64,000 nt of DNA from Candidatus Latescibacterota bacterium (GCA_965204745.1 OZ242010.1:3773389-3837388); one strand, 5' to 3'. Counted from the stretch's first letter, positions 19,736 through 47,000 are shown. Numbers and translations: made by a program. Notes: generated from the sequence alone by a model not told the origin.

Positions 19736-22700
19736 ATGATTACCACCCTTTTCAGATCGCGCTTGTTGGCCCTGTTCATGCTGGTCGGACTGGTGGCATC
19801 GGGGCCGGCTTTTGCCCAAACCATCATCGACTACGACACCGACGACGACGGCTACATTGAGGTGTCCGGCCACGCCCAACTCAACGCCATTCGCAACGAC
19901 CTCGACGGCGACGGCAATCCCACAGTCGGCGGCTCCAGTGCCTACAACAACGTATTCCCCAACCGCGACGGCAACGCCGCCACGCGCATGGGCTACCCCT
20001 CAGGAAACTGCGTCGGCTACGAACTCACCGCCAACATCAACCTAACCACCTACACCAACTGGGATCCCATCGGCGACAACACCAACAACTACACAGGCGA
20101 CTTCAAGGGCAACGGCTACACTATCGACAACCTGACCATCAGCCGTTCCACCGAATCTTATGTGGGACTATTCGGCGCCTTCAGCTCCACCGCTCGCATC
20201 GAGTCCGTCGGCATAACCAACGCCAACGTTACGGGAAGCGAATTCGCCGGCGCTCTGGTCGGCGGCTCTAACGGAGAAATCATCGCCTGCTGGTCCACCG
20301 GCAGCGTTACGGCAAGAAGGGTCGTTGGCGGACTGGTCGGATAGACTGGCAGCACTATCACCTCAAGCTACTCCCACGCATCCGCCACCGGAACCCAAGC
20401 ATCAACGTCTGATCACGTCGGCGGACTGCTGGGACAAGCCAAGGTGCCAACGTAAGGAACTCCTACTCCACCGGCAGGGTTACCCGCGCCACCGGTGCCA
20501 CTACTACAAACGTCGGCGGGTTGATAGGAAGCGGCAGCTCGACCGACGCTCCCGGTAGTTACTGGGACACCCAAACCAGCGGGCAGGCAACAAGCGCCGG
20601 CAGTGCCACCGCGGTGGGACAAATGACCACCGCGCTCCAAAATCCCACCGGCTACACCGGCATCTACGCCAACTGGAACATCGACCTAGACAACGCCGAC
20701 GGCGACAACAACAGGACAACCGGCGTGGACGACCCCTGGGACTTCGGCGCCACAAACGCATATCCCACGCTGACATACGGACTCACCGACTACGATCTGG
20801 ACAACGACGGCTACATCGAGGTGTCCGGCCACGCCCAACTCAACGCCGTCCGCTACGACCTCAACGGCACTGGGGTCGTAGCCGCTACTGATACCGCGAA
20901 CTACAACGCCGCCTTCCCCCTACGCATGACATCCGCCACAAAGCGCATGGGCTGCCCCAGAAGCGGTTGCACGGGCTATGAACTCACCGCCGATATAGAC
21001 CTCGACACCAACGGCGACGGCAACCACACCGCCGCCGACGCATACTACAACAGCGGCAACGGCTGGGATCCTTTAGGCGGCGACTCCGGCAACCGCAACC
21101 AGTACTCAGGCAATTTCAAAGGCAACGGCTTCACCATAGACAACCTGGTCATCAATAGAACCGGCACCGACGACGTCGGTCTGTTCGGCGCAAATTCCAG
21201 TACATCCACCATCGAGACATTGGGCGTAACCAACGCCAACGTCTCGGCGCGGGAATATGTCGGCATTCTGGTAGGCACCAGTTACGGAGCAATCATCGCC
21301 TGTTACACCACCGGCGCGGTGAGCGCCTCCGTAGCGGATGTCGGCGGGCTGATAGGCTTAATGAACAGATCCGCTACGTCCGTCACCTCTAGCTACTCCA
21401 CCGCGTCCGTCAGCGGAGGCGCCAGTAATGGCGGCGGCCTAGTAGGGCGGGTCGTAAGCGGTAGCGTAACAAACTCATATTCCACCGGCAGCGTCACCAC
21501 CACCGACACCCCAAGGGGCGGGTTAATTGGGCTGAGCAGCAGCGGCATCGTAACCGCAAGCTACTGGGACACCACAACTAGCGGCCGCTCCAACAGCGCA
21601 GCCGGAACGGGCTACGCCACCGCAGACCTCAAGGGCCCCACCGACTACACCGGCATCTACTCCACATGGAACGCCAACATCGACGGACAGCCGGGCAACG
21701 ACGACCCGTGGTACTTCGGTAGCCCCGGATGGTACCCGCTACTGAAGTACGGCGGGCATGACCTCGGAAAGCAGGACTCCGGCGAATACGACTACGATGA
21801 CGACGGCTACATCAACGTCTTCACCCTCGCTCAGCTCAACGCCATCCGCTACGACCTAGATGGCAACGGCGATCCCGCAAGCGGCGCTACCGCCTACAAC
21901 GCCGCCTTCCCCTACCGCGACACCGCCGCCGGTAGCCGAATGGGTTGCCCGTCCGGCACCTGCACGGGCTACGAACTGCTCGCAAGCCTCGACTTCGACG
22001 AAAACGGCGATGGCGACATTACCCAAACCGGCGACCCCACATATTGGAACAGCGGCATGGGCTGGAATCCCATCGGAACTTTCTCCACCCCATACCAAGG
22101 CGATTTCAAGGGCAGCGGCCACACCATCAACAACCTGTTCATCAGCCGTGGCAACGTGAATACCATGCCTGCTACACCACGGGATCGGTCACCGGCACAG
22201 ACCGCGTCGGCGGCATAGTTGGCTATCAAGGCCGAAACGCGGCGGTTATCAATTCCAGCTACTCCACCGCCGCCGTCAGCGGCAACAACTATGTCGGCGG
22301 GGTGTTGGGGCAAAAGTTCGGCAGTGTAACGAACTCATACTCCACCGGCCGAGTCAGCGGGTCCTCAAACGTCGGCGGGCTAATAGGATCCTCTAGTCAA
22401 GGCAGCACGACCAATAGCTACTGGGACACCTCCACCAGCCGCACAACCAGTAGCAGCGGTGGCGGCACGGGTAAGACGACCAGCGAGCTCCAAAGCCCCA
22501 CCACCTACGGTGCCACCGCCAACGACACCTACTACGGCTGGGACGCCGACCTCGACGGACAATCCGGCAACGATGATCCGTGGACCTTTGGCGCGATGAA
22601 TCAGTATCCGGTCTTGAAGTATGCTGGCATGGACACCACCGTGCAATTTCAGATCCAACCCGTGGTCGTGACGTTGGCACTGACGCCCTCGACGATCTCG

Positions 22701-24230
22701 GAAAGCGGCGGGATGAGTACCGTGACCGCGACGCTGGCACACCCGTTGAGCACGGCGACGACGATCACTGTGCGCCCTGTGGCGGGTGCTTACACGGTGG
22801 GGACGGATTCGACGATCACCATCGCGGCCGGGCAAACCGCGAACGCGTCGGACACGGTGGTCATCACAGCGGTGGACAACACCCAAGACGCGCCTAATCG
22901 CGACGTGGACATGTCCGTTGTGGCGGGCAACGCCCAGGCAGTGTTCCTCTCGACTGTGATAACGATCACCGATGATGACGCGCCGCCGATGCTCTTGATC
23001 GATTCGCCGAGTGCGGTTGAGGGCACTGCCTTGACGTTCACCGTTAGATTGAATGCGGTGAGTGGCAAGGAGGTGACGGTGGCGTATGCAGACGCTGGCA
23101 CGGGTAGCGCGACTTCGGGGACGGATTACACCGCGCTTACCGCAGGAACCCTGACCTTCGCGGCGGGCACGACCATGACCAGCCAGACCTTCGCTATTTC
23201 TGTGACCGGCGACACGGATGATGAGCCGAACGAGACCGTGATGGTGACTTTGAGCAACGCGGTCAATGCCACCTTTGATGGCGGGGCTACGAGCCTCACC
23301 GGCACCGGTACGATTATCGACAACGATGGCATGCCTGCGCTGAGTATCGGTTCGCCAAGCGTGATTGAAGGCGCGACCGGCGCGACCCTGACCTTTCGGG
23401 TGTACCTACGCCCAGCGCACACGGCACAAGTGACGGTGGCGTATGCAGACGCTGGCACGGGCACCGCGACTTCGGGGACCGATTACACCGCGCTTACCGC
23501 AGGGACCCTGACCTTCGCGGTAGGCGATACCATCCAGACCATCCCTGTTTCTGTGACCGACGACTCGGATGATGAGCCGAACGAGACCGTGATCGTGACG
23601 CTGAGCAGTGCGACCAATGCGACCATAAGCACAGCGTAAGGCACCGGGACGATTATCGATGACGAAACCCCGAGTGCCAACTTGGATGTGGATGGCGATG
23701 GCCGGGTGAGATTGTTCTCGGATATAATCCTGGTCATTCGATATGTCCTCTTCTTCCGGAACGAGGCCCTCCTCAGAGGGAACGTCATCGAGCCAACTGC
23801 CACGCGCACGACCGCTCAAGAAATTGAACCCTACCTCGACACGTTGGTCAATCAGAACATTCTCGATGTGGATGGCGATGGCGATGTGAGGCTGTTCTCG
23901 GATATAATCCTGGTCATTCGATACGTCCTCTTCTTCCGGAACGAGGCCCTCCTCAGAGGGAACGTCATCGAGCGAAATGCTACGCGCAAGACCGCTCAAG
24001 AAATTGAACCCTACCTCGACACGTTGGTCAATCAGAACATTCTCGATGTGGATGGCGATGGCGATGTGAGGCTGTTCTCGGATATAATCCTGATCATTCG
24101 ATACGTCCTCTTTTTCCGGAACGAGGCCCTCGTCAGAGGGAACGTCATCGAGCAAAATGCTACGCGCACGACCGCTCAAGCCATTGAACCCTACATTCGA
24201 AACCTCTATCCCGACTCCCACTTCCAATGA
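19736..24230 (+). pseudogene. pseudogenised paralog of the giant GLUG/Calx-beta/dockerin-repeat surface protein (signal peptide, 3 GLUG units, 3 Calx-beta, 3 dockerin-like repeats)
   Basis: In-frame TAG at 20342-20344, frameshift near 20445, a deletion/frameshift of about 135 bp near 22150-22200, and in-frame TAA at 23637-23639. The last about 2.1 kb is roughly 95% identical to the reverse complement of 43998-46070. Confidence 0.7.
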
Positions 24231-24421
24231 AAGCCTGTTCCCTGACCGCCACAGATGAAGATGGCGATGGCAATGTGAATTTCGCCGACTTCTTGACCTT
24301 TGCGGATAAGTTCGGCTCGCGGCTCGGACAGGAGCGATATGACGCCCGGTGCGATGGCGATGGTCAAATTGACTCTGCCGATTTCTTCATCTTCGCCGAT
24401 AACTTTGGTTCGACAGGCTGA
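24227..24421 (+). CDS. stand-alone dockerin-like minigene (two Ca-binding repeats), start overlapping the stop of the upstream gene
   Basis: DEDGDGNVNFADFLTFADKFG and DGDGQIDSADFFIFADNFG dockerin type-I-like repeats; ATGA start/stop overlap; paralog at 43801-44001. Confidence 0.6.
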   Translation: MKACSLTATDEDGDGNVNFADFLTFADKFGSRLGQERYDARCDGDGQIDSADFFIFADNFGSTG

Positions 24422-24450
24422 CAAATGCGAAAGACGTGAAAGGGAAAAGT

Positions 24451-24490
24451 AAAGCCCGGGTTCCCAGTGAACTCGGGCTTTACTTTTTGG
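24451..24490 (+). terminator. Rho-independent terminator
   Basis: AAAGCCCGGGTTCCCAGTGAACTCGGGCTTT followed by ACTTTTT. Confidence 0.7.
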
Positions 24491-24499
24491 GAATTGGGT

Positions 24500-24950
24500 A
24501 CCTACCCCCTGGCCCCGTTACTCGCTACGCTTCGTTGTAGGCTACGCCTGTGCCTACGAGGAAGGGGGAATGGCGAGAGGGATTGCGAGGGATTGCGCGA
24601 GCGGTTTTTGGATTTCATGGCGTGATCCATTCGCCCAAAGCCATCAGAATAGCCCTGGATGCAAACCTTTAAGAAAGCCATGCGCTCCCCCTTTCCTGCG
24701 AGGAAGGGGGAATGGCGAGCGGTTTTGCGAGGGGAATGGCGAGCGGTTTTTGGGGTTCATGGCGTGATCCATTCGCCCAAAGCCATCAGAATAGCCCTGG
24801 ATGTAAACCTTTAAGAAAGCCATGCGCTCCCCCTTTCCTCGCAGGAAAGGGGGCCGGGAGGATAGGTCTATGGCGGTGGGGATGTGTGGGGTAATCCGCG
24901 TAATCCGCGTAATCCGCGTAATCCGTTTAATCCGCGATTCAGACACGGCC
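24500..24950 (+). repeat. cluster of MITE-like elements plus a (GTAATCCGC)4 microsatellite
   Basis: Same TIR family and CCCCTTTCCT hairpins; two near-identical approximately 130-bp subrepeats. Confidence 0.75.
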
Positions 24951-24963
24951 GGGAGGTGAGGCA

Positions 24964-26130
24964 TCACAATTTGAATGGTTCGCGCTCGGTTTGGGCGAGG
25001 GTTTGCGCGATGAGGGGGGCGAGGTCGAGGGAGGATTCAATGGCGTGGACTTTTTGTAAATCCGCGTGCGTTTCCGGGTGTTTGGGCACGAAGACCGAGC
25101 AACAATCCTCGTAGGGTTCGATAGAGATATCATAGGTGCCGATGCGCCGAGCAAGCGCGATGATCTCTTCCTTGTTGTCGCCGGCCAATGGGCGCAGGAT
25201 GGGTAGCGCGGTCACTTCTTCGATGGCGCGCAGGTTCGACAGGGTTTGCGATGCGACTTGACCGACGTTTTCGCCGGTGACGAGTGCTTGGGCATCCACC
25301 TTTTTGGCGATGGCTTCTGCGATCCGCAACATCGCGCGGCGGTAGAGAATGACGCGATAACTCGCGGGCGCGCGCATCATAATTTGGCGTTGAATTTCCA
25401 CGAAGGGGACGAGGTACAAGTCCGACGCGAATTGATGCCGGTTGAGGAGGCGCACGATGTCTTCGGTATTGCGCTGGGAATTGCGATTGGTGTAGGGCTG
25501 GCTGTGGAAATGCACGTACGTCAGGGTGACGCCGCGCTTCATCAATTTGTAAGACGCCACGGGCGAGTCGATCCCGGACGAGATGAGGCTGACAGCGCGT
25601 TCCCCCGTACCCACGGGCAACCCCCCGGGTGCGGGGATTTTTTTTGCATAGACAAAGATGCGTTGCGGGGCGATTTCAATAAAACAAGTGAGATCCGGCG
25701 CGTCCATCTGCACGCGCGCGCCGGAAAGGGTTTGGATGTGATGGCCCACGTCTCGATTGATTTGCTCGGAATTGAGCGGAAAGGTTTTGTCCCCGCGCTT
25801 GGTCACAATTTTGAAGGATGCGAACTCGGCTTTTTGTGCCAGTGCCCAAGCGGTTTCCCGGATGGCTTCCATCTCGCGTTCTACGACCACAGCCTCGGAA
25901 AAATTGGCGATGCCAAAGACCGTTGCGAGCCGCTCGCAGATCACCTCGGTCGGCGATTCCGGGGTGAGCGCGAGCATCATCCGGCCCGACAGGCGTTGCA
26001 CATTCCCGCGCGGCAACCCTTTGAGCGCGCGGTCGATGTTGGTCATCAGGCGCCGTTCAAATCTGCCCCGATTTTTGCCCTTGAGGCCGATTTCGTGATA
26101 GTGGATGAGCATGAAGCGGTCGTTGTTCAT
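24964..26130 (-). CDS. thiI: tRNA 4-thiouridine(8) synthase
   Basis: THUMP-like N-terminus and PP-loop SGGIDSPVA. Confidence 0.85.
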   Translation of the reverse strand: MNNDRFMLIHYHEIGLKGKNRGRFERRLMTNIDRALKGLPRGNVQRLSGRMMLALTPESPTEVICERLATVFGIANFSEAVVVEREMEAIRETAWALAQKAEFASFKIVTKRGDKTFPLNSEQINRDVGHHIQTLSGARVQMDAPDLTCFIEIAPQRIFVYAKKIPAPGGLPVGTGERAVSLISSGIDSPVASYKLMKRGVTLTYVHFHSQPYTNRNSQRNTEDIVRLLNRHQFASDLYLVPFVEIQRQIMMRAPASYRVILYRRAMLRIAEAIAKKVDAQALVTGENVGQVASQTLSNLRAIEEVTALPILRPLAGDNKEEIIALARRIGTYDISIEPYEDCCSVFVPKHPETHADLQKVHAIESSLDLAPLIAQTLAQTEREPFKL

Positions 26131-27701
26131 AGTCGAGTCGTCGAGAATGGATCGCGCTGGAGAACGACGAGGGTGATATCGTCTGTGCGCCGCGCATCGC
26201 CGATAAAAGAGGTGACCTCTGCGACCAAGTCGTCGATCAAATCCGCGGGCTGTCGGGAGGGGAGGGCGCGCTCGAGGCGGCGAACAAATCGGTCGTCGTC
26301 AAAAAAGTCGCGCTGGGCATTTTGCGCTTCCACGACGCCATCGGAATAGAGCACCAAGCGATCCCCCGGGTTCAGGGTGAGATGGATTGTGCGATAAGGC
26401 GTTTCTGGCCGCACGACTGCGGGAATGCCCAAGGGATAGCCCGTGAGATCGAGAAATTGAGAGTGCTTGGAAAGATGAATCGGCGGGCAGTGCCCCGCGC
26501 TTGCGATAGTGACCTCGGCGGTGGTTGTGTCGAGCACGGCGATGCAACAAGTGATAAACGTGGCGGCTTCAATCTGACCTTCGAGCGACGCGTTTAGCCC
26601 ATCGAGAATATCCCCCGGCGCGGTGCGATTTTGGCATTCGTAGCGCAGCATCTCATTAAAACGCACGGCTGTCACCGCCGCTTCCATCGCTTTGCCAGAG
26701 ACGTCGGCAACCACGATGCCGAGTTTTGTCTGCTCGTCGTCCAAATAGCGGTACGCATAGTAGTCCCCACCCACGCTGTTGGCCGGGATGCACGTCCCTG
26801 CAAGTTCAAACCCGGGCAGTTCTGGACTCGATTGCGGCAACAGGCTCATTTGCATGTCGTGCGCGGTTTGCAACTCGTCTCGCATTTCTGAAAATTGTTG
26901 TTTGTAGTCCTCCCACTGCCGGCCTTCTTCGCACAGGGTTTGGTTGTACGCGGATGCCACGATGCCGAGGGACAGGGGTTGAAACAGGAGGAAAATGCAG
27001 ACTTGAACGAGGGTATTGGCGGCGACCTGCCCGATGAGCACAACAGCACCCCCGAGAATCCCAAGCGAGGCGAGGATGAGGGCGAAGTGCCGGAAAAAGC
27101 CATAGCGTTCAACGGCCTTGCGGCTTTCCACATGGGCTTCGTCGACGTGCATGCCGCGGTCCGCGGCCAGCAGGTAGATGTAGAAACACTTGACGACAAA
27201 AATGAGGCCGGGCAAAAATAACAGGCATGACGCCAACACAGATGCGTAAAACAGGATGTTCCGCTCCGCCAAAAATCGTTCGATATGCTCTGGCCCAATG
27301 GCGATGACCCAAGGCGTTTCTCGGGCGATATCTTGCTTGAACGCATTGAACAGGAGCGCAAACGCATCGCTATTCAAAAACACCGGCACTGCGATAATGA
27401 GCACGCCGAGAATGAAAAACAGCAGCACAAAAATGTTCATCGAAAAAAAGCGGGCGAACCGGATGAGTTGCCCAAACAGATCGCGCAAGTGGGGTTTCTC
27501 GCCTTGGTGGGCGCGCAAAATCATCATGGCAAACCCCGCGTACAGGCTGCCCAAAAGCAGGGTGCCGGACAGCACACTCAGGAGCGTCGCCAAAAATGAC
27601 GCCAAAAACAAGATGGGCAGATGGCTCGCCCAAGTGGAGAGGCTGTCGCTGAGACAGCGAAAGAATCGGAGGTTTGCCCGAACGGGAATGTCGAAAGCCA
27701 T
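26127..27701 (-). CDS. PP2C-family serine/threonine phosphatase (SpoIIE/RsbU-like) with an N-terminal multi-TM domain
   Basis: C-terminal GDYYAY...VADVSGKAMEAA...LYSDGVVE PP2C/SpoIIE motifs. Confidence 0.8.
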   Translation of the reverse strand: MAFDIPVRANLRFFRCLSDSLSTWASHLPILFLASFLATLLSVLSGTLLLGSLYAGFAMMILRAHQGEKPHLRDLFGQLIRFARFFSMNIFVLLFFILGVLIIAVPVFLNSDAFALLFNAFKQDIARETPWVIAIGPEHIERFLAERNILFYASVLASCLLFLPGLIFVVKCFYIYLLAADRGMHVDEAHVESRKAVERYGFFRHFALILASLGILGGAVVLIGQVAANTLVQVCIFLLFQPLSLGIVASAYNQTLCEEGRQWEDYKQQFSEMRDELQTAHDMQMSLLPQSSPELPGFELAGTCIPANSVGGDYYAYRYLDDEQTKLGIVVADVSGKAMEAAVTAVRFNEMLRYECQNRTAPGDILDGLNASLEGQIEAATFITCCIAVLDTTTAEVTIASAGHCPPIHLSKHSQFLDLTGYPLGIPAVVRPETPYRTIHLTLNPGDRLVLYSDGVVEAQNAQRDFFDDDRFVRRLERALPSRQPADLIDDLVAEVTSFIGDARRTDDITLVVLQRDPFSTTRL

Positions 27702-27780
27702 GGGAGTTGTCAGTTGTCAGTTGTCAGGCCGCCCCGCCCTGCGAACCCGCAAGCGAGACGTGAGACGTGAGATGGAAGTT

Positions 27781-29784: not shown

Positions 29785-29816
29785 GGGAGTTTCGCCACAA
29801 CAGGTGAAGGCGTGAA

Positions 29817-38701: not shown

Positions 38702-39739
38702 ATGTACATCGGAACACAGACCAGTTGTCGGAACGAAACGGACATTGAGGTTCTCGCGCAACTCGGGGTGTTTAACGTGGATCAAACGCCGAGCGGGCCG
38801 TGGGCGGACTGGACGACCGATACGATCAAATCCCTGCGCGACCAGTTCGACAAGTACGGCATCAATGTCGAAATGATGCAGTTGAGCCGTTGCTCGCTCG
38901 GCGCTTGCCAAGGCACAAAAGGCATGCGCGGCATAGTTCCCTTGGGCTCGCAAAGCGCGTTCAAAAATGAGGCCGGCGCGATTTTCCTGGGGCCCAGCGA
39001 CGCACGCGACCGCGCATTGGATCGCATGTGCGAGACAATCAGAATGGCCGCAGAAGCGGGCCTGCGCGGGCTGAATTACAACATCACCATCTTGGGACAC
39101 CTCCGCACAGAAGCGCGATACGGCCGCGGACACGCACGGCTGTCGTCGTTTGAATACGACAAATTGGACCAATCCCTAGGCATGTTTGAGGGCGGGCCGG
39201 CAGACGAGGACGAGATGTGGGAACGCATTGACCACTGGCTGCAGTGCATCATCCCAGTGGCCGAGGAGTACAAAATTCAGATGGCCTGTCACCCCTCTGA
39301 CCCGGGCATCGGATACGGCACGACGTATCGGGGAGTCGCGCGCGTGCTCGGCATGGTGGATGGCTTCAAGAAGCTCGTCGACCTGTACGACAGCCCGTAC
39401 AACGGCCTGAACTTCTGCTTGGGTTGCATGGCCGAGAGCCTCGAAAATCCCGCGGAAGAGATCTATGACGTGATCCGGTATTTTGGATCGCGCAAGAAAA
39501 TTTTCAATGTCCACTTCCGCAACATCAAGGGCGGGCTCCGCAATTTCGTCGAAGTGTTCCCAGACGAGGGCGACGTGAACATGCTCAAAGCCCTGCGGAC
39601 ATTTAAAGAAGTCGGGTACGAATACATGATCATGCCCGACCATGTCCCGGGCATCTCCGGCCCCGAAGCCAGACAGGTCGGCTTTGCCTATACGTACGGG
39701 TACATCCACGCGCTGTTGCAGGCGGTTCATGAGCGTTAG
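38702..39739 (+). CDS. uxuA: mannonate dehydratase
   Basis: IIPVAEEYKIQMACHPSDPG and IMPDHVPG align with E. coli UxuA; RBS GGAGGT. Confidence 0.8.
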   Translation: MYIGTQTSCRNETDIEVLAQLGVFNVDQTPSGPWADWTTDTIKSLRDQFDKYGINVEMMQLSRCSLGACQGTKGMRGIVPLGSQSAFKNEAGAIFLGPSDARDRALDRMCETIRMAAEAGLRGLNYNITILGHLRTEARYGRGHARLSSFEYDKLDQSLGMFEGGPADEDEMWERIDHWLQCIIPVAEEYKIQMACHPSDPGIGYGTTYRGVARVLGMVDGFKKLVDLYDSPYNGLNFCLGCMAESLENPAEEIYDVIRYFGSRKKIFNVHFRNIKGGLRNFVEVFPDEGDVNMLKALRTFKEVGYEYMIMPDHVPGISGPEARQVGFAYTYGYIHALLQAVHER

Positions 39740-39740
39740 A

Positions 39741-39826
39741 GACCTACCCCCCTTCCTTCCCTCACAGGCACAGGCGTAGCCTACAACGAAGCGTAGCGAG
39801 TAACGGGAGCCAGGGGGGTAGGTCCC
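39741..39826 (+). repeat. minimal 86-bp MITE with perfect TIRs GACCTACCCCCC / GGGGGGTAGGTC
   Basis: Terminal inverted repeats flank the core CAGGCACAGGCGTAGCCTACAACGAAGCGTAGCGAGTAACGG, which is shared with all other copies. Confidence 0.85.
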
Positions 39827-39850
39827 TCAGCTTCTTAATTTTTCTTGGTA

Positions 39851-41029
39851 TCAAGCGGTTTTTTGAAGAGCGAGTTCGCGGGCGAGCAAACGCTCGAGGG
39901 TGGGGTTGATGTGATAGAAGTCGCGTAGGGCGCGATACGCTTGAACAGCGGTTTGATCGCCTGTTCGGGAGGTTTTTGTTGCGCGGATGAGGAGGTTCTT
40001 GGGCGTGTGTTTGGAGTCGATAAATTCCATGACTTCGGCGCGATAGCCCACGATGCGGAGGAGTTGTGCGCGGCAGGCGTCTGTGAGGATGTCCGCGGTG
40101 CGGTTCTTGAGAATGCCGTGTGCCATCACTGGCGCGAAAACAGACGCGCTGAGTTGTTCGCGCAGTTCGCGTTGGCAACAAGGCGCGGCGAGGATGACCG
40201 CACTGCGCCACTGCACGGCGCGGGCGATGGCGTCGTCGGTTGCGGTGTCGCAGGCGTGCAAGCTAAACACAATGTCGGGCCGCGCTCGCGGTGTGAAGGC
40301 GGCGATGCTGGCTTTGCAAAACGCGATGTCTGTCCAGCCGAGGGTGTGGGCTAAGGCGCGGCATTTGGCGATGAGGGAGGGGTTGTGGTCGATGCCGATG
40401 AGGCGTGCGGGGATGTGCTGGATGTGGTTCAAGTAGTGATACGCCGCAAACGTGAGATACGCACTGCCGCAACCGCAGTCGATGAGCGTAAGCGGGCGGT
40501 TCGATTTTGGAATGACGGGATGTAAGTGGTCGAGAAACGCATTGATCTGCTTGAACTTGTCGCGCCTGGATGTGCGGACGCGGCCCTCGGCATCCATAAT
40601 CCCGAGGCCCTGCAAAAAGGCGTCTGGCCGATTGTCCGGCAAGGGGTGGTGCTTGACGCGATTGTGCGACAGCGCGGGTTGGACATTGGGCCGCGAGGGG
40701 TTTGCGCGTTTGAACAATGCCCTGCCTTTTTTGGTGATGCGAATGTGGAGGTCTTCGCGCCTGGTTTGCACATGGATTTGCGCGAAGGGCAAGGCCAAGA
40801 CCTCGTTGAGCGCGGCAGGTGCCGCTACCATCGGGACGTTTTCCGCGAGGGCTTGCACTTGGCTAAACCGCGCGATCTGGAGGTGGGGCATGCCTTTGAT
40901 CGCGACAGGGCGAACCGCGATTTTGCGCCAAGCCGTGCCCGCACGCGGCTGGCTGAGGGTCAGCTTGAGAAAGGTCTTCGCGCTTGAGACCGCGTTGAGG
41001 ACGGCGGTTTTGTAATCTGTGGTGGACAT
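39851..41029 (-). CDS. class I SAM-dependent methyltransferase
   Basis: LIDCGCGSAYLTFAAYHYL SAM-binding motif. Confidence 0.7.
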   Translation of the reverse strand: MSTTDYKTAVLNAVSSAKTFLKLTLSQPRAGTAWRKIAVRPVAIKGMPHLQIARFSQVQALAENVPMVAAPAALNEVLALPFAQIHVQTRREDLHIRITKKGRALFKRANPSRPNVQPALSHNRVKHHPLPDNRPDAFLQGLGIMDAEGRVRTSRRDKFKQINAFLDHLHPVIPKSNRPLTLIDCGCGSAYLTFAAYHYLNHIQHIPARLIGIDHNPSLIAKCRALAHTLGWTDIAFCKASIAAFTPRARPDIVFSLHACDTATDDAIARAVQWRSAVILAAPCCQRELREQLSASVFAPVMAHGILKNRTADILTDACRAQLLRIVGYRAEVMEFIDSKHTPKNLLIRATKTSRTGDQTAVQAYRALRDFYHINPTLERLLARELALQKTA

Positions 41030-41034
41030 AATTG

Positions 41035-42162
41035 CTACACCGCATACGCGATGGATCCATCCGCACGCAGAGGGGTTTGGACCTTGGTCAAGGGCGCGAA
41101 GGGCGCGTCCGGGATTTTGGCGTCGTGGAGTTCAACGCCAATGCCGGGGGCTTCGGGAAGGGGAATATATCCGCCTTCGCGTTTGTGCGCGCATTTGTAA
41201 ATCGCGTTGTGCTCGCGTTCGTCGTTTTTGGAATATTCCTGCGTGATGAAGTTGGGAATGCTGGCGTCGAGGTGAACCGATGCGGCGGTGCCCAAGGGGC
41301 TGAGAAAATTGTGCGTGACCACCGCGCAGTGATGGGATTCGGCGATGGCAGCGATTTTTTTGCAGTGGGTCAGGCCGCCTGCCAACGCCACGTCCGGGCG
41401 CACGTATTGCGGGCCGCCGCGCTCTAGGAGTTCCCGAAATTCCCAGATGGTGGTGAACCGCTCGCCATTGCCCAAGGGAACGGGCATGCGTTTGGCAATG
41501 TCCGCCTGCGTGGTGATGGTGTCGATCTGAATGGGGTCTTCCATAAAGTAGAGGTGATAGGGCGTCAAAGCATTGCCCAACGCGACGGCGACCATTGGGG
41601 TGAGTTTGCGGTGGACTTCCACGATGAGATCCACATCGGGGCCGGCGCCCTCGCGGGCAGCAGCGACAATGTCGACGGCGTTCTGGATGAGGCGCGCTTG
41701 CGCTTGGTTCTGATAGCCACCCGTGAGCGGATCGAATTTGATCGCGGTAAAACCCTCGGCAACCGCGGCTTTGGCGTTTTCGTACATCGCTTCCGGCGTG
41801 GGGCCGCCAGCGAGCAAGTGCAGGCGGATTTTGTCCCGGCAGTTGCCGCCGAGCAATTCCCAAACGGGCACCTGAAAGTGCTTGCCTTTGATGTCGTAGA
41901 GGGCGATGTCGATGGCACTGACCGCGCCGCAAAGCATTGTGCCGCGAAACGGGGCCATGCGGTAGAGGTGTTGCCAATGGTGTTCGATACGCAGTGGATT
42001 TTGTCCGATGAGGTATTCTCTAAAAACGGCAACCACGCGCTCGACCGCTTCGGGATAGCCCCAACAGGCCGAGGTGCCGATGCCGGAAATGCCGCTGTCG
42101 GTGGTGAGACGCACGACGTAGCTGTTGCCGAGGAGGAAGTGTTCGAGTTGGTCAATTTTCAT
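41035..42162 (-). CDS. enolase-superfamily (mandelate racemase/muconate-lactonising enzyme family) acid-sugar dehydratase, ManD-like
   Basis: MR/MLE N- and C-terminal domains with KxK...D...E...D metal ligands. Confidence 0.8.
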   Translation of the reverse strand: MKIDQLEHFLLGNSYVVRLTTDSGISGIGTSACWGYPEAVERVVAVFREYLIGQNPLRIEHHWQHLYRMAPFRGTMLCGAVSAIDIALYDIKGKHFQVPVWELLGGNCRDKIRLHLLAGGPTPEAMYENAKAAVAEGFTAIKFDPLTGGYQNQAQARLIQNAVDIVAAAREGAGPDVDLIVEVHRKLTPMVAVALGNALTPYHLYFMEDPIQIDTITTQADIAKRMPVPLGNGERFTTIWEFRELLERGGPQYVRPDVALAGGLTHCKKIAAIAESHHCAVVTHNFLSPLGTAASVHLDASIPNFITQEYSKNDEREHNAIYKCAHKREGGYIPLPEAPGIGVELHDAKIPDAPFAPLTKVQTPLRADGSIAYAV

Positions 42163-42486
42163 GATCGGTCTCCAAAGGTGAGATGGAAGTTGTCAGTTGT
42201 CAGTTGTCAGTTGTCAGTTGTCAGTCCCCACCCGACCACCCAACCTGAAGTGAGACACGAGCGGGGTACAACTGGCGACAGACCGTTCAAAGGCGATTAG
42301 CCACAAAAGGCACAAAAGGCACGAGCGGGGTACAACTGGCGATAGCCCGTTCAAAAGCGATCAGTGAGTGTAGGTCTTCTCCCGTCTTGCCTCTCTCCTC
42401 TCACCTTTTTGGGCGATGCCCGTGCGTTGGAATGCGTATATTACGCGATGAAATTGCAATAAGCAACCAAATACGAGGAGGGCGAG

Positions 42487-43245
42487 ATGCCGAATTTGCG
42501 GTTTGCAAAAAAAAAGGAGCGGCGGGTGGCACTGATTACCGGCGGTGCGCGGGGCATTGGCGGGGCAACGGCCCTGCGAATTGCAGCGGAAGGACGCGAT
42601 GTAGTCATCGCCGATGTGTTGGCAGATGAGGGCGCAGAGACGGTTGCAAAAATTGAAGCGGTGGGCCAGCGCACCCTGTTCGTCAAGACCGATGTGACAG
42701 ACGAGACTGCGGTTCAGGCGTGCGTGGCGCGAACAGTGGAGGCGTTTGGGCGGTTGGATATTTTGGTGTGTTGCGCCGGCATTTTGGGATGGGAGAAGCC
42801 ATTTTCTGAGCAACCCGTGGCGCAGTTTGATCGGGTGATGCGGATCAATGTGTACGGGGTGTATCACTTTCATCAGGCCGCGATTCCCCACATGCTCAAC
42901 CGGGGATGGGGACGCTGCGTGACCATCACATCGGGGGCGCGCAATGGCAGTCCGAATCAGGTGCCGTATTCCGTGTCCAAAGGCGCGGTGTATTCCTTCA
43001 TCGGCGCGTTGGGCAACGCCTATTGCAAGGACGGGGTGTTCGTCAATGGCGTGGAACCCGGGCGTGCGTTGACGGAGATGGTCATACCGAGGTTTTCGCC
43101 CGAGTATATCGCCAATCCCCCCGGTCAGGCGATGGGGCGATACTCGGACCCGGAGGAGGTCGCCGAGGTGATCGAGTTTTTGTGTTCCGAGCGCAATACC
43201 TATACGTCGGGATCCGTGTGGAGTGTGAAGGGCGGGAGGGGGTAG
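42487..43245 (+). CDS. SDR-family oxidoreductase
   Basis: TGGARGIG cofactor motif and catalytic YxxxK (YSVSK). Confidence 0.85.
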   Translation: MPNLRFAKKKERRVALITGGARGIGGATALRIAAEGRDVVIADVLADEGAETVAKIEAVGQRTLFVKTDVTDETAVQACVARTVEAFGRLDILVCCAGILGWEKPFSEQPVAQFDRVMRINVYGVYHFHQAAIPHMLNRGWGRCVTITSGARNGSPNQVPYSVSKGAVYSFIGALGNAYCKDGVFVNGVEPGRALTEMVIPRFSPEYIANPPGQAMGRYSDPEEVAEVIEFLCSERNTYTSGSVWSVKGGRG

Positions 43246-43287
43246 GGAAAACCAAAGCGGATTACCCCACACATCCCTACCGCCATA

Positions 43288-43720
43288 GACCTATCCCCCG
43301 GCCCCTTTCCTACGAGGAAAGGGGAGTAGAGTTCCTTTGATGGCTTATATCTATGCTTGTTCTGATGGCTTTACACGAATGGATCGCGCCATAGAAACCC
43401 AATCTCGCACAAATCCCTCGCAAGACCCATCGCCATTCCCCCTTCCTTCCTCGTAGGAAGGGGGCTAGGGGGTAGGTCCCACCTCGCAAAACCTATCCCC
43501 CCGGCCCCCGTTATTCGCTTCGCTCATTGTAGGCTACGCCTGTGCCTACAAGGAAAGGGGGAGCGCATGGCTTTCTGAAAGGTTTATATCCCCTGGCTGT
43601 TTTGATGGCTTTGAGCGAATGGATCAATGAACCCCAAAAAACCTCTCGCCATTCCCTCGGAAAACCTCTCGCCATTCCCCCCTTCCTCGCAGGAAGGGGG
43701 GTTAGGGGGGTAGGTCCCAA
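43288..43720 (+). repeat. two tandem MITE copies
   Basis: GACCTATCCCCCGGCCCC...GGGGGCTAGGGGGTAGGTCC, then a second copy ending GGGGGGTAGGTCCC. Confidence 0.8.
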
Positions 43721-43766
43721 AAAGTAACGCCCGAGTTCACTGTGAACCCGGGCGTTACTTTTTTTC
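43718..43766 (-). terminator. bidirectional Rho-independent terminator (paralog of 24451-24490)
   Basis: AAAAAGTAACGCCCGAGTTCACTGTGAACCCGGGCGTTACTTTTTTT. Confidence 0.7.
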
Positions 43767-43800
43767 CATCGTATGCGTGCCCTTTCGCGTCTTTCGTCGT

Positions 43801-44001
43801 TCAACCTGATGAGCCAAAGTCGGCGGTGAAGATGAGGAAATCGTCGAATCCAATTTGACCATCGCCATTGAGATCGCACCGGGGGTCATATCGCTCCTGA
43901 CCGAGGCGCGAGCCGAACTTGCTGGCAAAGGTCAAGAAGTCGGCGAAATTCACATCGCCATCGCCATCGCTGTCTGTGGCGGTCAGAGAACAGGCTTTCA
44001 T
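43801..44001 (-). CDS. stand-alone dockerin-like minigene, start overlapping the stop of the giant gene
   Basis: DSDGDGDVNFADFLTFASKFG and DLNGDGQIGFDDFLIFTADFG; ATGA overlap with the upstream stop. Confidence 0.6.
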   Translation of the reverse strand: MKACSLTATDSDGDGDVNFADFLTFASKFGSRLGQERYDPRCDLNGDGQIGFDDFLIFTADFGSSG

Positions 44002-47000
44002 TGGAAGTGGGAGGCGGGATAGAGGCTTCGGATGTAGGGTTCAATGGCTTGAGCGGTCGTGCGCGTAGCATTTTGCTCGATGACGTTCCCTCTGAGGAGG
44101 GCCTCGTTCCGGAAGAAGAGGACGTATCGAATGATCAGGATTATATCCGAGAACAGCCTCACATCGCCATCGCCATCCACATCGAGAATGTTCTGATTGA
44201 CCAACGTGTCGAGGTAGGGTTCAATTTCTTGAGCGGTCGTGCGCGTAGCAGTTGGCTCGATGACGTTCCCTCTGAGGAGGGCCTCGTTCCGGAAGAAGAG
44301 GACATATCGAATGACCAGGATTATATCCGAGAACAATCTCACCCGGCCATCGCCATCCACATCCAAGTTGGCACTCGATGTTTCGTCATCGATAATCGTC
44401 CCGGTGCCTTGCGCCGTGCTTATGGTCGCATTGGTCGCACTGCTCAACTCGACGATCACGGTCTCGTTCTGCTCATCATCCGAGTCGTCGGTCACAGAAA
44501 CAGGGATGGTCTGGATGGTATCGCCCATCGCGAAGGTCAGGGTCCCTGCGGTGAGCGCGGTATAATCCGTCCCCGAAGTCGCGGTGCCCGTGCCCGCGTC
44601 TGCATACCCCACCGTCACCTGTGCCGTGTGCGCCGGGCGTAGGTACACCTGAAAGGTCAGGGTCGCGCCGGTCGCGCCTTCAATCACGCTTGGCGAACCG
44701 ATACTCAGCGCAGGCATGCCATCGTCATCGATAATCGTACCGGTGCCGGTGAGGCTCGTAGCCCCGCCATCAAAGGTGGCATTGACCGCGTTGCTCAAAG
44801 TCACCTCCACGGTCTCGTTCTGCTCATCATCCCCGTCGTCGCTCACAGAAACAGCGAAGGTCTGGCTGGTCGTGCCCGCCGCAAAGGTCAGGGTTCCTGC
44901 GGTGAGCGCGGTGTAATCGGTCCCCGAAGTCGCGCTGCCCGTGCCCGCGTCTGCATACGCCACCGTCACCTCCTTGCCGCTCGCCGCATGCAATCTAACG
45001 GTGAACGTCAGGGCAGTGCCCTCAACCGCACTCGGCGAACTGATCGAGAGCCTCGGCGGCGCGTCATCATCTGTGATCGTTATCACAGTCGAGAGGAACA
45101 CTGCCTGGGCGTTGTCTGCCACAACGGTCACGGTCACGTCGCGATTAGGCGCGTCTTGGGTATTGTCCACCGCTGTAATGACCACCGTATCCGACGCGTT
45201 CGCCGTACTCCCTGCCGCGATGGTGATCGTCGAATCCATCCCCACCGTGTAAGCATCCGCCACCGGGCGCACCTTGATCGTTGTCGCCGCACTCAACGGG
45301 TGTGCCAGCGTCGCGGTCACGGTGCTCATCCCCCCGCTTTCCGAGATCGTCGAGGGCGTCAGTGCCAACGTCACTATCGCGGGTTGGAGCTGAAATTGCA
45401 CGGTGGTGTCCATGCCGGCATACTTCAAGACCGGATACTGATTCATCGCGCCAAAGGTCCACGGATCATCGTTGCCCGCCTGTCCGTCGAGGTTGGCGTC
45501 CCAGCCGTAGTAGGTGTCGCTGGGGGTGGCACCGTAGGTGGTGGGGCTCTGGAGCTCACTGGTGGTCTTGCCCGTGCCGCCGCCCCCGCTGGTGGCACGG
45601 TCGCTGGTGGAGGTGTCCCAGTAGCTATTGGTCGTGCTGCCTTGACTAGAGGATCCTATTAGCCCGCCGACGTTTGAGGACCCGCTGACTCGGCCGATGG
45701 AGTATGAGTTCGTTACACTGCCGAACTTTTGCCCCAACACCCCGCCGACATGGTTGCTACCGCTGACGTCGGCGGTGGAGTAGCTGGAATTGATAACCGC
45801 CGCGTTTCGGCCTTGATAGCCAACTATGCCGCCGACGCGGTCTGTGCCGGTGACCGATCCCGTGGTGTAGCAGGCGACGATTGTGCCGTTATTGCTGCCG
45901 ACCAGAATGCCTGTGTAGAGGGCTCCGGTGACATCGGCGTTGGTTACGCCCACGGTTTCTATTTGAACTCCGGTGTCAACATCGCCGAACAGCCCGATGC
46001 TATTCACGTTGCCACGGTTGATGAACAGGTTGTTGATGGTGTGGCCGTTGCCCTTGAAATCGCCTTGGTATTGGGTGGAGAAAGTTCCGATGGGATTCCA
46101 GCCCATGCCGCTGTTCCAATATGTGGGGTCGCCGGTTTGGGTAATGTCGCCATCGCCGTTTTCGTCGAAGTCAAGGCTTGCGAAAAGTTCGTAGCCGGTG
46201 CATGTCCCGGAAGGACAACCCATACGGACGTTGCTGGTGGTGTCTCGGTTGGGAAAGGCGGCGTTGTAGGTCATGGTATCACTAGCGGCGACGACCCCAT
46301 CGCCGTTGAGATCCCAGCGAATGGCATTGAGTTGCGCCAGCGTCGTAATGTCGATGAGGCCATCGCCATCGCTGTCGTAATCGATCCTTTGGGGCGTGCC
46401 CATGACCTCGTCCGAGGGATCGCTATCCATCCCACCTGCCAAGGTGGCAATGACGCGCACGGTGTAGATCGTGCCAATCGTCAGGTTCTCTATCGTGTAG
46501 GTCGTGGTGTTTCCTCCAGAGACCGTCGCCTGGCGATCAGAGGTGTTGTAGCTTTGTCCGCCGGACTTCCACTGCACCTTGTACCCCCTCGCGCCGGTTG
46601 CCTCGGTCCAACGCACGATGAGTTGAAGCGGCCCCGGCGTCACGCGCACATTGGTGGGCTTGGCTGGCGCCGTGGTCACCATGACTGCGTCCGAAGGGGT
46701 GCTGTTGGCGGCCGTTGTGGTGTGCGTGGCGATCACTCGAATCGTGTAGGTCGTCTCTGCGGTCAGCCCAGAAATATCGTAGGTCGTGGTGCTCCCGTCA
46801 GCGATTGTGGCTTGCCCGCGCAAGGCGGACACCAGATCGGAGGTGGGATAAGTCTCTGACCCGGATTTCCACTGCACCTTATACCCGATGGCATCGTCCA
46901 CCGCATTCCAAGTCACGGTCAGCGTGTCCGCCGTCGCACTCACCTCCACACCCGTCGGGCTACCCAGCAGGGGAACGTCGGTCACTTCATCCGAGGGGTC

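What the first reader, a model, noticed from the sequence alone, without database searches (positions are those of the whole stretch)
22150..46070. Inverted approximately 2.3-kb near-identical repeats (adhesin 3' end plus dockerin minigene plus terminator) flank a 19-kb segment: candidate invertible region or gene-conversion cassette
22150-24490 (plus strand) and 43718-46070 (minus strand) are about 95-99% identical at nucleotide level in inverted orientation, and the homologous terminators and downstream MITEs are also duplicated. Homologous recombination between them would invert the 19.4-kb segment that carries thiI, the PP2C phosphatase, the sigma-54 two-component system, NfeD-flotillin, an ECF sigma factor and the psp locus. 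Alternatively, the silent plus-strand copy could act as a donor cassette for gene conversion of the expressed giant adhesin (antigenic or size variation).
Basis: seen in the sequence. Interest (0 to 1): 0.7.

Follow-up and report, generated by a model that had tools for sequence, protein, structure and literature searches.

The report
Convergent adhesin paralogs sharing 3' module
The inverted repeat is real, but it is the shared tail of two convergent giant surface-protein genes from a multi-copy family, one freshly decayed; the DNA between them has the same orientation in all four available strains, so this is ordinary paralog recombination and not a programmed switch.

Summary
Window 21893-24492 (+) and 46270-43715 (-) are collinear inverted repeats, 93.5% identical over 2375 aligned bases. 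They differ by a 121-nt and a 180-nt indel and end at a hairpin terminator.

The plus copy is not a silent cassette. It is the 3' part of a complete second gene (19736-24230) with its own promoter-like site and signal peptide. Four lesions specific to this strain disable it.

Both genes belong to a modular GLUG / fn3 / Calx-beta / dockerin family in a Latescibacterota genome. At least four members of that genome share this C-terminal module.

The 19-kb segment has the same orientation in all four independent assemblies. One is a 99%-identical strain whose left gene is a different, intact allele with no long repeat. Pfam scans of about 50 ORFs across the window found no serine- or tyrosine-recombinase (invertase) domain.

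The two copies diverged before the strains split (97 orthologous sites against 6 concerted and 1 crossed). Mismatches are clustered, dS is uneven, and short mosaic patches point to occasional gene conversion, partly from other paralogs.

A local GC-skew reversal hints at an old, fixed inversion, which is unproven.

Verdict: an ordinary recombining paralog pair. Low-frequency inversion cannot be excluded from consensus assemblies.

The parts
21893..24492 (+). Left arm of the inverted repeat (IR-L). It is the 3' module of the decayed left gene, followed by the small dockerin ORF and the terminator.
   Evidence: 93.5% identical to 46270-43715 over 2375 aligned columns
43715..46270 (-). Right arm of the inverted repeat (IR-R). 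It is the 3' module of the intact adhesin gene, followed by the small dockerin ORF and the terminator.
19736..24230 (+). Left giant surface-protein gene, a pseudogene in this strain. It encodes a signal peptide, three GLUG-type modules, Calx-beta domains and three dockerin-like 60-aa repeats. It is split into ORFs 19736-20344, 20521-22218, 21945-23639 and 23682-24230.
   Evidence: P0138 from the 5.48-Mb source genome equals the 445-aa fragment.
20342..20344 (+). Lesion 1: TAG nonsense codon. Genome 3 and strain 4 have TGG here.
20434..20435 (+). Lesion 2: a 1-nt deletion (frameshift) found only in the window strain.
22166..22167 (+). Lesion 3: site of a 121-nt deletion (frameshift) relative to 45876-45996. 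The 121 nt are present in the left copies of genome 3 and strain 4.
23637..23639 (+). Lesion 4: TAA nonsense codon. Four of the other five copies compared have CAA; the left copy of genome 3 has GAT.
43998..49574 (-). Intact 1858-aa adhesin gene. It encodes a signal peptide, a cadherin-like domain, five fn3 domains, one GLUG module, Calx-beta domains and two dockerin-like repeats.
24227..24421 (+). Left 64-aa dockerin/EF-hand ORF. Its ATG overlaps the upstream stop codon (ATGA).
43801..44001 (-). Right 66-aa dockerin/EF-hand ORF with the same ATGA overlap. It consists of a He_PIG-repeat fragment plus a dockerin that is 93.3% identical to the in-frame C-terminus of the strain-2 left adhesin.
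24444..24488 (+). Hairpin terminator with an A-run before it and a T-run after it, so it could act in both directions. It marks the end of collinear homology.
   Evidence: dG -31.9 kcal/mol, z -4.7
43719..43763 (-). The homologous hairpin terminator, with one compensatory stem change.
   Evidence: dG -37.9 kcal/mol, z -6.2
23685..24194 (+). Tandem array of 180-nt dockerin-like units, 2.8 copies. The third unit occurs only in this copy among the six compared.
44034..44363 (-). Tandem array of 180-nt dockerin-like units, 1.8 copies.
46724..47477 (-). Tandem array of 297-nt fn3 units. Genome 3 has one unit fewer (1758-aa protein).
24493..43714 (.). Intervening 19.2-kb segment of housekeeping and stress genes. 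Its orientation is the same in all four assemblies. Its GC skew is opposite to that of both flanks.
19630..19657 (+). Promoter-like site TTGACA-16-TTTAAT upstream of the left gene, outside the segment.
   Evidence: sequence read
49828..49857 (-). Promoter-like site TTGACA-18-TATTTT upstream of the intact adhesin gene, outside the segment.
24500..24960 (.). Cluster of dispersed MITE-like repeats. It is not part of the duplication.
43290..43714 (.). Cluster of the same MITE-like family. It is not collinear with the left cluster.

Best explanation
The two arms are the common 3' module of two convergently transcribed members of a large, modular surface-protein ('giant adhesin') gene family in a Latescibacterota chromosome. 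The module comprises the second half of a GLUG module, the Calx-beta domains, 60-aa dockerin-like calcium-binding repeats, a small overlapping dockerin ORF and a hairpin terminator.

The right gene is intact. The left gene is a complete paralog with its own promoter and signal peptide, and it has recently decayed in this strain.

The shared block arose by duplication or segmental gene conversion before the sampled strains diverged. Since then the two copies have mostly diverged independently, to 93.5% identity. Ordinary homologous recombination acts on the family in three visible ways:
- short-patch gene conversion, partly from other paralogs;
- slippage in the 180-nt and 297-nt tandem units;
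- replacement of the whole left allele between strains.

The housekeeping segment between the genes is not a programmed invertible element, and its orientation is fixed in the strains available.

Shown here: the anatomy, the lesions, family membership, the orientation in four assemblies, and the site patterns. Inferred: that the patches arose by gene conversion, and that the small dockerin ORF is a split-off former C-terminus.
For: - Anatomy, lesions and Pfam domains come.
- The left gene has a start codon, a signal peptide and a promoter-like site.
- All lesions are strain-specific. The window has TAG, -1, -121 and TAA. Genome 3 has -5 and -1150. Strain 4 has +1.
- dN/dS is 0.38, so both copies were under purifying selection for most of their divergence.
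- The 5.48-Mb source genome holds at least two more genes ending in the same module (P0123, P0125). P0123 is 90.3% identical over the last 430 aa, against 91.5% for the left copy.
- The orientation is the same in strain 2, genome 3 and strain 4.
- In strain 2 the left gene is an intact 1765-aa GLUG/fn3/He_PIG/dockerin protein with no Calx module, so that strain has no long repeat.
- Four-sequence site patterns give 97 orthologous, 6 concerted and 1 crossed site, and 26, 0 and 1 for window against genome 3.
- Mismatches are clustered, with 0 of 5000 permutations reaching the observed value.
- dS is heterogeneous (p = 0.009 and 0.007).
- At 14 sites the strain-2 right copy equals the window left copy, against 0.8 expected (P = 2e-14).
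- No invertase or integrase domain was found in the ORFs scanned.
Against: - Consensus assemblies show only the majority orientation, so a minority of flipped cells would be invisible.
- Identical runs of up to 130 nt exceed what RecA-dependent recombination needs (established knowledge), so inversion is physically possible.
- The strand-linked GC skew of the block from about 24 to 50 kb is opposite to both flanks. In related genomes the same gene cluster agrees in sign with the 10 kb of DNA downstream of it. At least one inversion or rearrangement may therefore have happened here in the past.
- Two comparison contigs have low coverage (5x and 2.2x by their names). Single-base differences in them, and paralog-like patches if they were polished, could be artefacts.
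Confidence: 0.75

Rival explanations
1. A past inversion, now fixed, through recombination between the two adhesin paralogs. The segment was flipped once before the sampled strains diverged, and the repeats mark the breakpoints. This concerns history and is compatible with the best explanation.
For: - A two-breakpoint fit of GC skew places the switch points at about 22.7-24.3 kb and about 50.5 kb. The right one is poorly defined between 43 and 51 kb. Skew is +0.048 inside and -0.044 outside.
- Third-position plus-strand skew of minus-strand genes averages +0.24 inside (n=11) and -0.03 in the flanks (n=8), Mann-Whitney p = 0.0005.
- In 11 of 13 related Latescibacterota loci, the skew of the 10 kb that ends with ThiI agrees in sign with the skew of the 10 kb downstream. 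The sign differs between genomes (L014 is positive), so the skew is not intrinsic to the genes.
- In 8 relatives ThiI is followed by a conserved gene pair that is absent from the window, so the 3' end of ThiI is a lineage-specific breakpoint.
Against: - The former neighbours of ThiI are not at the other end of the segment, so a simple 19-kb flip does not restore the synteny seen in relatives.
- Relatives are heavily rearranged. In OZ244028.1 the enolase/adh_short pair lies 3 Mb from the ThiI cluster.
- The inference rests on about 20 genes in 64 kb.
- A general excess of C over G on coding strands explains part of the pattern.
- Strain 2 lacks the left repeat but has the same orientation.
Confidence: 0.3
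2. A RecA-dependent invertible switch in the style of the Campylobacter fetus sap locus. Rare crossovers between the arms would flip the 19 kb and exchange the 3' ends. That would import the left copy's lesions or its extra dockerin-like unit into the expressed adhesin, giving ON/OFF or size variation.
For: - The arms are inverted, 2.6 kb long, and contain identical runs of 100-130 nt.
- A crossover upstream of 23637 would transfer the TAA codon, and one upstream of 22166 the 121-nt deletion, into the intact gene. A crossover downstream of 23637 would add one 180-nt unit (inference).
Against: - Four of four assemblies share one orientation.
- Only 1-4 crossed sites were found, and no long exchanged tract.
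- There is no promoter inside the segment and no recombinase nearby.
- The lesions that would make the event a 'switch' are private to one strain and recent.
- A 99%-identical strain has no left arm.
Confidence: 0.07
3. A dedicated pseudogene donor system for antigenic variation, like Anaplasma msp2 or Neisseria pilS. The decayed left copy would be kept as a reservoir that feeds variant segments into the expressed adhesin.
For: Mosaic patches and clustered divergence are present. The pseudogene lies next to an expressed paralog. The family is multi-copy.
Against: - The left copy is full-length with its own promoter-like site and signal peptide. Its lesions are independent in each strain. It may be intact in strain 4 and is replaced by an intact different allele in strain 2.
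- Only 6 of 104 informative sites are concerted, and 0 of 27 in the window against genome 3 comparison.
- The patches private to the window's right copy (45134-45128, 44451-44447) do not match the window's left copy. They do match motifs in other family members such as P0121 and P0122.
Confidence: 0.08
4. An assembly artefact: a falsely duplicated or chimeric repeat in a metagenome-assembled chromosome.
For: The source is a MAG, and repeats are classic places for misassembly.
Against: Both arms, each with its unique flanks, recur in independent assemblies. Genome 3 has both arms, strain 4 the left arm and strain 2 the right arm. The arms differ by 6.5% and by large indels, so they would not collapse or be confused in long reads.
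Confidence: 0.02

Closest known systems
Co-evolving inverted paralogs such as tufA/tufB of Salmonella/E. coli, where gene conversion is linked to occasional chromosomal inversion (recalled from the literature, not retrieved here)
   Same: Two paralogous genes lie in inverted orientation. RecA-type ectopic recombination gives short conversion patches, and the arrangement has an inherent potential for inversion of the DNA between them.
   Different: Here only the 3' 2.6 kb is shared. Identity is 93.5%, with the copies mostly diverging independently. One copy is a pseudogene. The genes encode variable surface proteins, not essential translation factors. At least two further family members can act as donors.
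Campylobacter fetus sap locus, RecA-dependent inversion between sapA homologues (recalled; the search found no paper in the held library)
   Same: Oppositely oriented paralogous surface-protein genes with a conserved block flank a multi-kb segment that homologous recombination could invert.
   Different: In C. fetus the conserved blocks are at the 5' ends and the single promoter sits inside the invertible segment, so inversion changes which gene is expressed. Here the genes are convergent, the conserved blocks are at the 3' ends, each gene has its own outside promoter, and only one orientation is seen.
Cassette or pseudogene gene-conversion systems: Neisseria pilE/pilS, Borrelia vlsE, Anaplasma msp2 'functional pseudogenes' (recalled)
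   Same: A non-functional paralog lies near an expressed surface-protein gene, and mosaic sequence patches are present.
   Different: There is no single expression site with promoterless partial cassettes. The 'donor' is a recently decayed full-length gene. Conversion is sparse and partly from other loci.
Giant modular GLUG / fn3 / Calx-beta / He_PIG / dockerin cell-surface proteins of uncultured bacteria
   Same: The domain set matches (Pfam hits). Tandem domain repeats vary in copy number. Many paralogs occur per genome.
   Different: Nothing that defines the family differs. Two local peculiarities stand out. The terminal dockerin is split off as a separate overlapping 64-66-aa ORF. Two members sit convergently around a housekeeping block.

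Membership tests
Site-specific invertible DNA switch (Hin/Gin/Fim/Tsr-type) | A dedicated serine or tyrosine recombinase encoded in or beside the element | tested here: not met
   Pfam scans of about 50 ORFs across the window found no resolvase/invertase or phage-integrase domain. The only mobile-element enzymes are an IS5-like DDE transposase (12008-13020) and an IS110-family transposase (15178-16260). The IS110 element is absent from genome 3.
Site-specific invertible DNA switch (Hin/Gin/Fim/Tsr-type) | Short (tens of bp) inverted repeats as crossover sites, with a promoter or gene part inside the segment that changes expression when flipped | tested here: not met
   The arms are 2.6 kb of coding sequence. 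The promoter-like sites of both adhesin genes lie outside the segment.
Site-specific invertible DNA switch (Hin/Gin/Fim/Tsr-type) | Both orientations present in populations or strains | tested here: inconclusive
   Four of four consensus assemblies share one orientation. Minority orientations cannot be seen without reads.
RecA-dependent inversion variation (C. fetus sap type) | Oppositely oriented paralogous surface-protein genes with a conserved block bracket the segment | tested here: met
RecA-dependent inversion variation (C. fetus sap type) | A single promoter inside the invertible segment and conserved 5' regions, so that inversion swaps the expressed gene | tested here: not met
   The genes are convergent, the conserved block is at the 3' ends, and each gene has its own upstream promoter-like site.
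Cassette gene-conversion antigenic variation (pilE/pilS, vlsE, msp2) | One expression site plus promoterless, truncated donor copies | tested here: not met
   The left copy has a start codon, a signal peptide and a promoter-like site. Its lesions are private to each strain.
Cassette gene-conversion antigenic variation (pilE/pilS, vlsE, msp2) | Frequent mosaic tracts in the expressed gene that derive from the donors | tested here: inconclusive
   Short patches exist. However, concerted sites are 6 of 104 and 0 of 27, and some patches match other paralogs. No within-population data are available.
Ordinary inverted paralog pair undergoing ectopic homologous recombination (tufA/tufB-like) | Paralogs with sharp homology boundaries, divergence that is patchy and not uniform, and no dedicated machinery | tested here: met
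   Identity rises sharply near 21930/46233 and ends at the terminator. Mismatches are clustered. dS is 0.03, 0.13 and 0.34 in the sub-blocks.
GLUG / Calx-beta / fn3 / dockerin giant surface-protein family | Domain composition and an N-terminal signal peptide | tested here: met
   Pfam hits for the intact gene: fn3 9.7e-46 and Calx-beta 9.5e-22. For the left gene's fragments: Glug 7e-4, just below Pfam's cut-off, and Dockerin_1 5e-6. Homologues carry PF07581, PF03160, PF00404 and PF00041.

The most novel reading that the evidence does not exclude
The convergent adhesin pair could be a working variation module in an uncultured Latescibacterota lineage. Rare RecA-mediated crossovers between the 3' arms would flip the 19-kb block. 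They would also exchange gene tails, importing stop codons, a frameshifting deletion or an extra dockerin-like unit into the expressed adhesin. That would toggle the gene or resize its product. Decayed paralogs and other family members would serve as a standing sequence reservoir. The GC-skew reversal would then be the footprint of such flips.
Probability: 0.08. Interest if true: 0.55.

Novelty: new member of a known kind. Interest (0 to 1): 0.27.

Why it matters
If the reading is right, the matter is mostly one of annotation and genome dynamics. It shows that a striking 2.6-kb inverted repeat around housekeeping genes can be simply two members of a recombining adhesin family. It also gives a worked example of how surface-protein genes of uncultured Latescibacterota diversify between strains of 96-99% identity. 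The mechanisms seen are whole-allele replacement, independent pseudogenisation, copy-number change in domain repeats, and short conversion patches. Such repeats are also likely substrates for the extensive rearrangement seen between related genomes. The finding does not reveal a new mechanism.

Tried and rejected
- **Synteny in species-level relatives (genome-contig scan with ThiI).** The PspA-to-ThiI cluster is conserved, but everything beyond ThiI differs. None of the window's flank genes or adhesins lie within 10 kb. These relatives are too rearranged to polarise a 19-kb flip.
- **Neighbours of the enolase-family gene in relatives.** They are equally scrambled. L089 has a different adhesin of at least 3534 aa next to adh_short in the opposite orientation, but at only about 70% nucleotide identity and with a different domain order, so it is not an ortholog.
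- **Exact-protein look-ups.** Those for the 303-aa minus-strand ORF, the left small ORF, DAO and SpoIIE found nothing. The 303-aa ORF is on the wrong strand; the real gene is adh_short at 42487-43245 (+).
- **The consensus terminator scan** missed the long hairpins. Folding found them.
- **MITEs as part of the duplication.** Rejected, because the family is dispersed.
- **Programmed frameshift joining the adhesin to the small dockerin ORF.** Considered and dropped. The small ORF is in the +1 frame, and no slippery site is evident at TTC-CAA-TGA. This was not tested further.
- **Literature searches** for Latescibacteria dockerin proteins and for C. fetus sapA inversion found nothing usable in the held library.
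- **Rfam** found only RNase P RNA and one tRNA, far from the feature.

Full report
**1. The observation**

A repeat search and BLAST of the two regions confirm a long inverted repeat. A global alignment shows collinear homology from 21893-24492 on the plus strand to 46270-43715 on the minus strand.

Within the block there are 2375 aligned columns with 155 mismatches, or 93.5% identity. The core, 22167-24014 against 45875-44034, is 94.1% identical over 1850 nt.

Four structural differences interrupt the alignment:
- 121 nt present only in the minus copy (45876-45996);
- one extra 180-nt tandem unit in the plus copy;
- two 6-nt indels;
- 2-nt and 17-nt indels before the terminator.

Homology starts abruptly near 21930/46233, inside a GLUG module. 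It ends at a 20-21-bp hairpin flanked by an A-run and a T-run. This terminator folds far better than shuffled sequence in both copies and carries one compensatory A-U to C-G change.

Beyond the hairpin, both sites hold members of a dispersed 140-175-nt MITE-like family. That family also occurs at 19.4, 27.9, 39.8 and 50.0-50.4 kb, and the copies are not collinear between the two sites. The MITEs are therefore not part of the duplication.

**2. What the arms are**

The minus arm is the tail of an intact 1858-aa ORF (43998-49574). Pfam finds a cadherin-like domain, five fn3 domains and Calx-beta domains. Its sequence also shows a signal peptide, a GLUG-type module like those Pfam detects in the left gene, and two dockerin-like 60-aa repeats.

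The plus arm is not a promoterless cassette. It is the tail of a second complete gene (19736-24230) that begins with an ATG and a typical signal peptide. A TTGACA-16-TTTAAT site lies upstream. The gene encodes three GLUG-type modules, Calx-beta domains and three dockerin-like repeats.

In this strain the left gene is broken four times:
- TAG at 20342;
- a 1-nt deletion at 20434;
- the 121-nt deletion at 22166/22167;
- TAA at 23637.

Each gene is followed by a 64-66-aa EF-hand/dockerin ORF whose ATG overlaps the stop codon (ATGA).

dN/dS between the arms is 0.38. Most of the divergence therefore accumulated while both copies were under purifying selection.

**3. Organism and family**

ThiI and its neighbours place the window in Latescibacterota. 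The closest species representative is OY282377.1, with ThiI 91% identical.

A homologue search with the shared module returned many GLUG/Calx-beta/dockerin proteins. One hit, P0138, is the window's own pseudogene fragment. This identifies the source as a 5,482,115-bp chromosome.

The same chromosome encodes at least two further proteins, P0123 and P0125, that end in the same module (...SLYP[A/D]SHFQ). Over the last 430 aa, P0123 is 90.3% identical to the intact adhesin. The neighbouring left copy is 91.5% identical over the same stretch.

So part of the inverted repeat is simply a family-wide conserved C-terminal module. The two window genes are the closest pair only when the GLUG and first Calx-beta parts are included.

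**4. Test of the invertible-segment idea**

Exact-protein look-ups retrieved three independent assemblies of close strains.
- **Strain 2** (ERZ25068400 ctg21289, about 99% identical; L087, L093, L106). One contig covers DUF3604, adhesin, right arm, adh_short and onward to ThiI and the left gene, in the window's order and orientation.
- **Genome 3** (ERZ25068394 contig_1, 5.28 Mb, 97-99% identical; L094, L103). Both junctions match the window.
- **Strain 4** (ERZ25070167, about 96% identical; L104). The left junction matches the window.

All four assemblies, counting the window, therefore agree.

Strain 2 has no long left arm. Its left gene is an intact 1765-aa protein with GLUG modules, one fn3, four He_PIG repeats and a C-terminal dockerin. 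It is only about 70% identical at the DNA level to the window's left gene and has no Calx module. The segment's orientation thus does not depend on the repeat.

Pfam scans of about 50 ORFs across the window found no invertase or integrase domain. They found only an IS5-like and an IS110-family transposase at 12-16 kb. Both adhesin promoter-like sites lie outside the segment.

A crossover would therefore move no promoter. It would only exchange the gene tails.

**5. Test of the gene-conversion idea**

*Within the window.* Mismatches are over-dispersed: the squared coefficient of variation of the gaps between them is 2.69 against 1.06, and 0 of 5000 permutations reach the observed value. The longest identical run is 130 nt, which is reached in 1.8% of permutations.

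Synonymous divergence differs between sub-blocks:

| Sub-block | dS |
|---|---|
| Dockerin-like repeats | 0.03 |
| GLUG and Calx parts | 0.13 |
| Small dockerin ORF | 0.34 |

Fisher tests against the GLUG and Calx parts give p = 0.009 for the dockerin-like repeats and p = 0.007 for the small ORF.

*Across strains.* A six-sequence alignment shows that the copies are mainly orthologous by position.
- For window-left, window-right, strain-4-left and strain-2-right, 97 sites group left with left and right with right. Six sites group the copies within a genome, and one is crossed.
- For window against genome 3 the counts are 26, 0 and 1.

The two arms therefore separated before the strains did and are not being homogenised.

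Short multi-nucleotide patches nevertheless break the tree.
- At 22908-22914, window-left, strain-4-left (with one difference) and strain-2-right share one version, while window-right and genome-3-right share another.
- At 23597-23601 only window-right differs (protein VIVELSS). That version occurs in other family members such as P0121 and P0122.
- Genome-3-right carries left-type bases inside the 121-nt stretch.

In total, 14 of the 37 differences between the right copies of the window and strain 2 make strain 2 equal to the window's left copy. The chance expectation is 0.8 (P = 2e-14).

The simplest reading is sparse short-patch gene conversion within a multi-copy family, combined with exchange between strains. 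A caveat is that two of the contigs have 5x and 2.2x coverage by their names.

**6. State of the left gene**

Every inactivating lesion is private to one strain.

| Strain | Lesions in the left gene |
|---|---|
| Window | TAG, -1, -121, TAA, plus the extra 180-nt unit |
| Genome 3 | -5 nt at 21395 and a 1150-nt deletion between Calx repeats |
| Strain 4 | a single +1 at 20667, which may be a read error at 2.2x coverage |

The allele was therefore functional until recently and is decaying independently in different strains. It is not a conserved silent store.

**7. The small dockerin ORF**

Its first part (CTGACCGCCACAGACAGCGATGGCGA) is 26/26 identical to a He_PIG repeat of the strain-2 left gene. 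The rest is 93.3% identical to that gene's in-frame C-terminal dockerin.

I infer that the family's older 3' end was He_PIG followed by dockerin and terminator. The Calx/dockerin-like module, with its own stop codon, was then recombined in upstream, leaving the dockerin as a separate overlapping ORF.

All indels inside this ORF among the six copies are multiples of three (12, 6 and 3 nt), whereas those just after it are not. This suggests the ORF is still constrained as coding sequence. Its expression is untested.

**8. A hint of an old inversion**

Cumulative GC skew falls to a minimum at 22.7 kb, rises to a maximum at 50.5 kb and then falls again. The best two-breakpoint fit is 24.25-50.5 kb, with skew +0.048 inside and -0.044 outside. 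The right boundary is nearly flat between 43 and 51 kb.

Third-position skew of minus-strand genes, measured on the plus strand, averages +0.24 inside the block and -0.03 in the flanks (p = 0.0005).

In 11 of 13 related loci, the skew of the 10 kb that ends with ThiI has the same sign as the skew of the 10 kb downstream. That sign differs between genomes, so the skew is linked to the region or to replication and not to the genes themselves.

The block may thus have been inverted, or its flanks rearranged, before the sampled strains diverged. This is not proof. The genes that follow ThiI in eight relatives are nowhere in the window, relatives are heavily rearranged, and the sample of genes is small.

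**9. Verdict**

The repeat is real. It represents two convergent members of a recombining giant-adhesin family, one of them a fresh pseudogene.

The idea of a programmed invertible region is not supported. The idea of a silent cassette is wrong in form. Occasional gene conversion within the family is supported.

The closest analogues are co-evolving inverted paralogs of the tufA/tufB kind. By layout only, the C. fetus sap locus is also close, but its defining features were tested here and not met. I rate the finding as a new member of a known kind and of modest interest.

Noticed in passing
window 35973-36056; 42191-42225; 61665-61699: There are perfect heptanucleotide tracts (ACTGACA)n of 12, 5 and 5 copies. 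The 42191 tract lies just upstream of the start of the enolase-family gene (42162, minus strand). Copy number differs between strains: 16 in genome 3 and 7 in three short contigs at the enolase site; 4+3 at the 35973 site in genome 3, and none in strain 2. These may be expression-variable simple repeats.
   Followed up: partly
window 19400-19620, 24500-24960, 27860-28100, 39755-39826, 43290-43720, 49940-50450: A dispersed 140-175-nt MITE-like repeat family fills intergenic regions, often in tandem pairs. It generates many spurious ORFs such as '...PPFLRGKGERMAFLK...'.
   Followed up: partly
window 24227-24421 and 43801-44001; L106 (reverse complement) 5006-5031 and 5638-5802: The 64-66-aa 'dockerin minigene' is a He_PIG-repeat fragment plus a dockerin. 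In strain 2 this dockerin is the in-frame C-terminus of a 1765-aa adhesin. Indels within the ORF across six copies are all multiples of three.
   Followed up: yes
L087 17288-18746 / L093 11630-12958, inserted at window 36596/36597: Strain 2 carries a 1.46-kb insertion encoding a 442-aa Cas12f1-like TnpB protein. The window lacks it.
   Followed up: partly
window 15178-16260 and 12008-13020: An IS110-family transposase gene lies in a stretch that genome 3 lacks, and an IS5-like DDE transposase is split into two ORFs. Both lie 4-8 kb left of the left adhesin gene.
   Followed up: partly
window 16281-19402: The sodium:alanine symporter and DAO oxidoreductase genes are only 85.8% identical to genome 3, whereas neighbouring DNA is 97-99% identical. 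This looks like a tract exchanged between lineages.
   Followed up: no
window 46724-47477: A tandem array of 297-nt fn3 units is 94% self-identical. The genome 3 adhesin has one unit fewer, 1758 aa against 1858 aa.
   Followed up: partly
window 38294-39739: The UxuA-like TIM-barrel gene has variable length or is split in other strains: 185 + 242 aa in strain 2, and 327-425 aa elsewhere. This suggests decay or uncertainty about the start codon.
   Followed up: no
window 42361-43272 (-) against 42487-43245 (+): The long minus-strand ORF here is spurious. The real gene is a 252-aa short-chain dehydrogenase on the plus strand, and it is conserved next to the enolase-family gene in relatives.
   Followed up: yes
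window 10755-11630 (+) and 33912-34532 (-): There are two ECF-type sigma-factor paralogs, one in the left flank and one inside the segment. They cross-matched in tblastn of related loci.
   Followed up: no
window 114-487 (-), 1754-1827 (-), 2000-4000: RNase P RNA and one tRNA lie at the left end. The adjacent 2-4 kb has low G+C (0.48) and small ORFs including a UPF0175 antitoxin-like protein, so it may be a small island.
   Followed up: no
L007-L013, L018: 11165-13500: In eight related Latescibacterota genomes ThiI is followed by a conserved pair of ORFs. One is a 361-aa protein 93-96% identical between the relatives. The pair is absent from the whole 64-kb window, which marks a lineage-specific breakpoint at the 3' end of ThiI.
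   Followed up: partly
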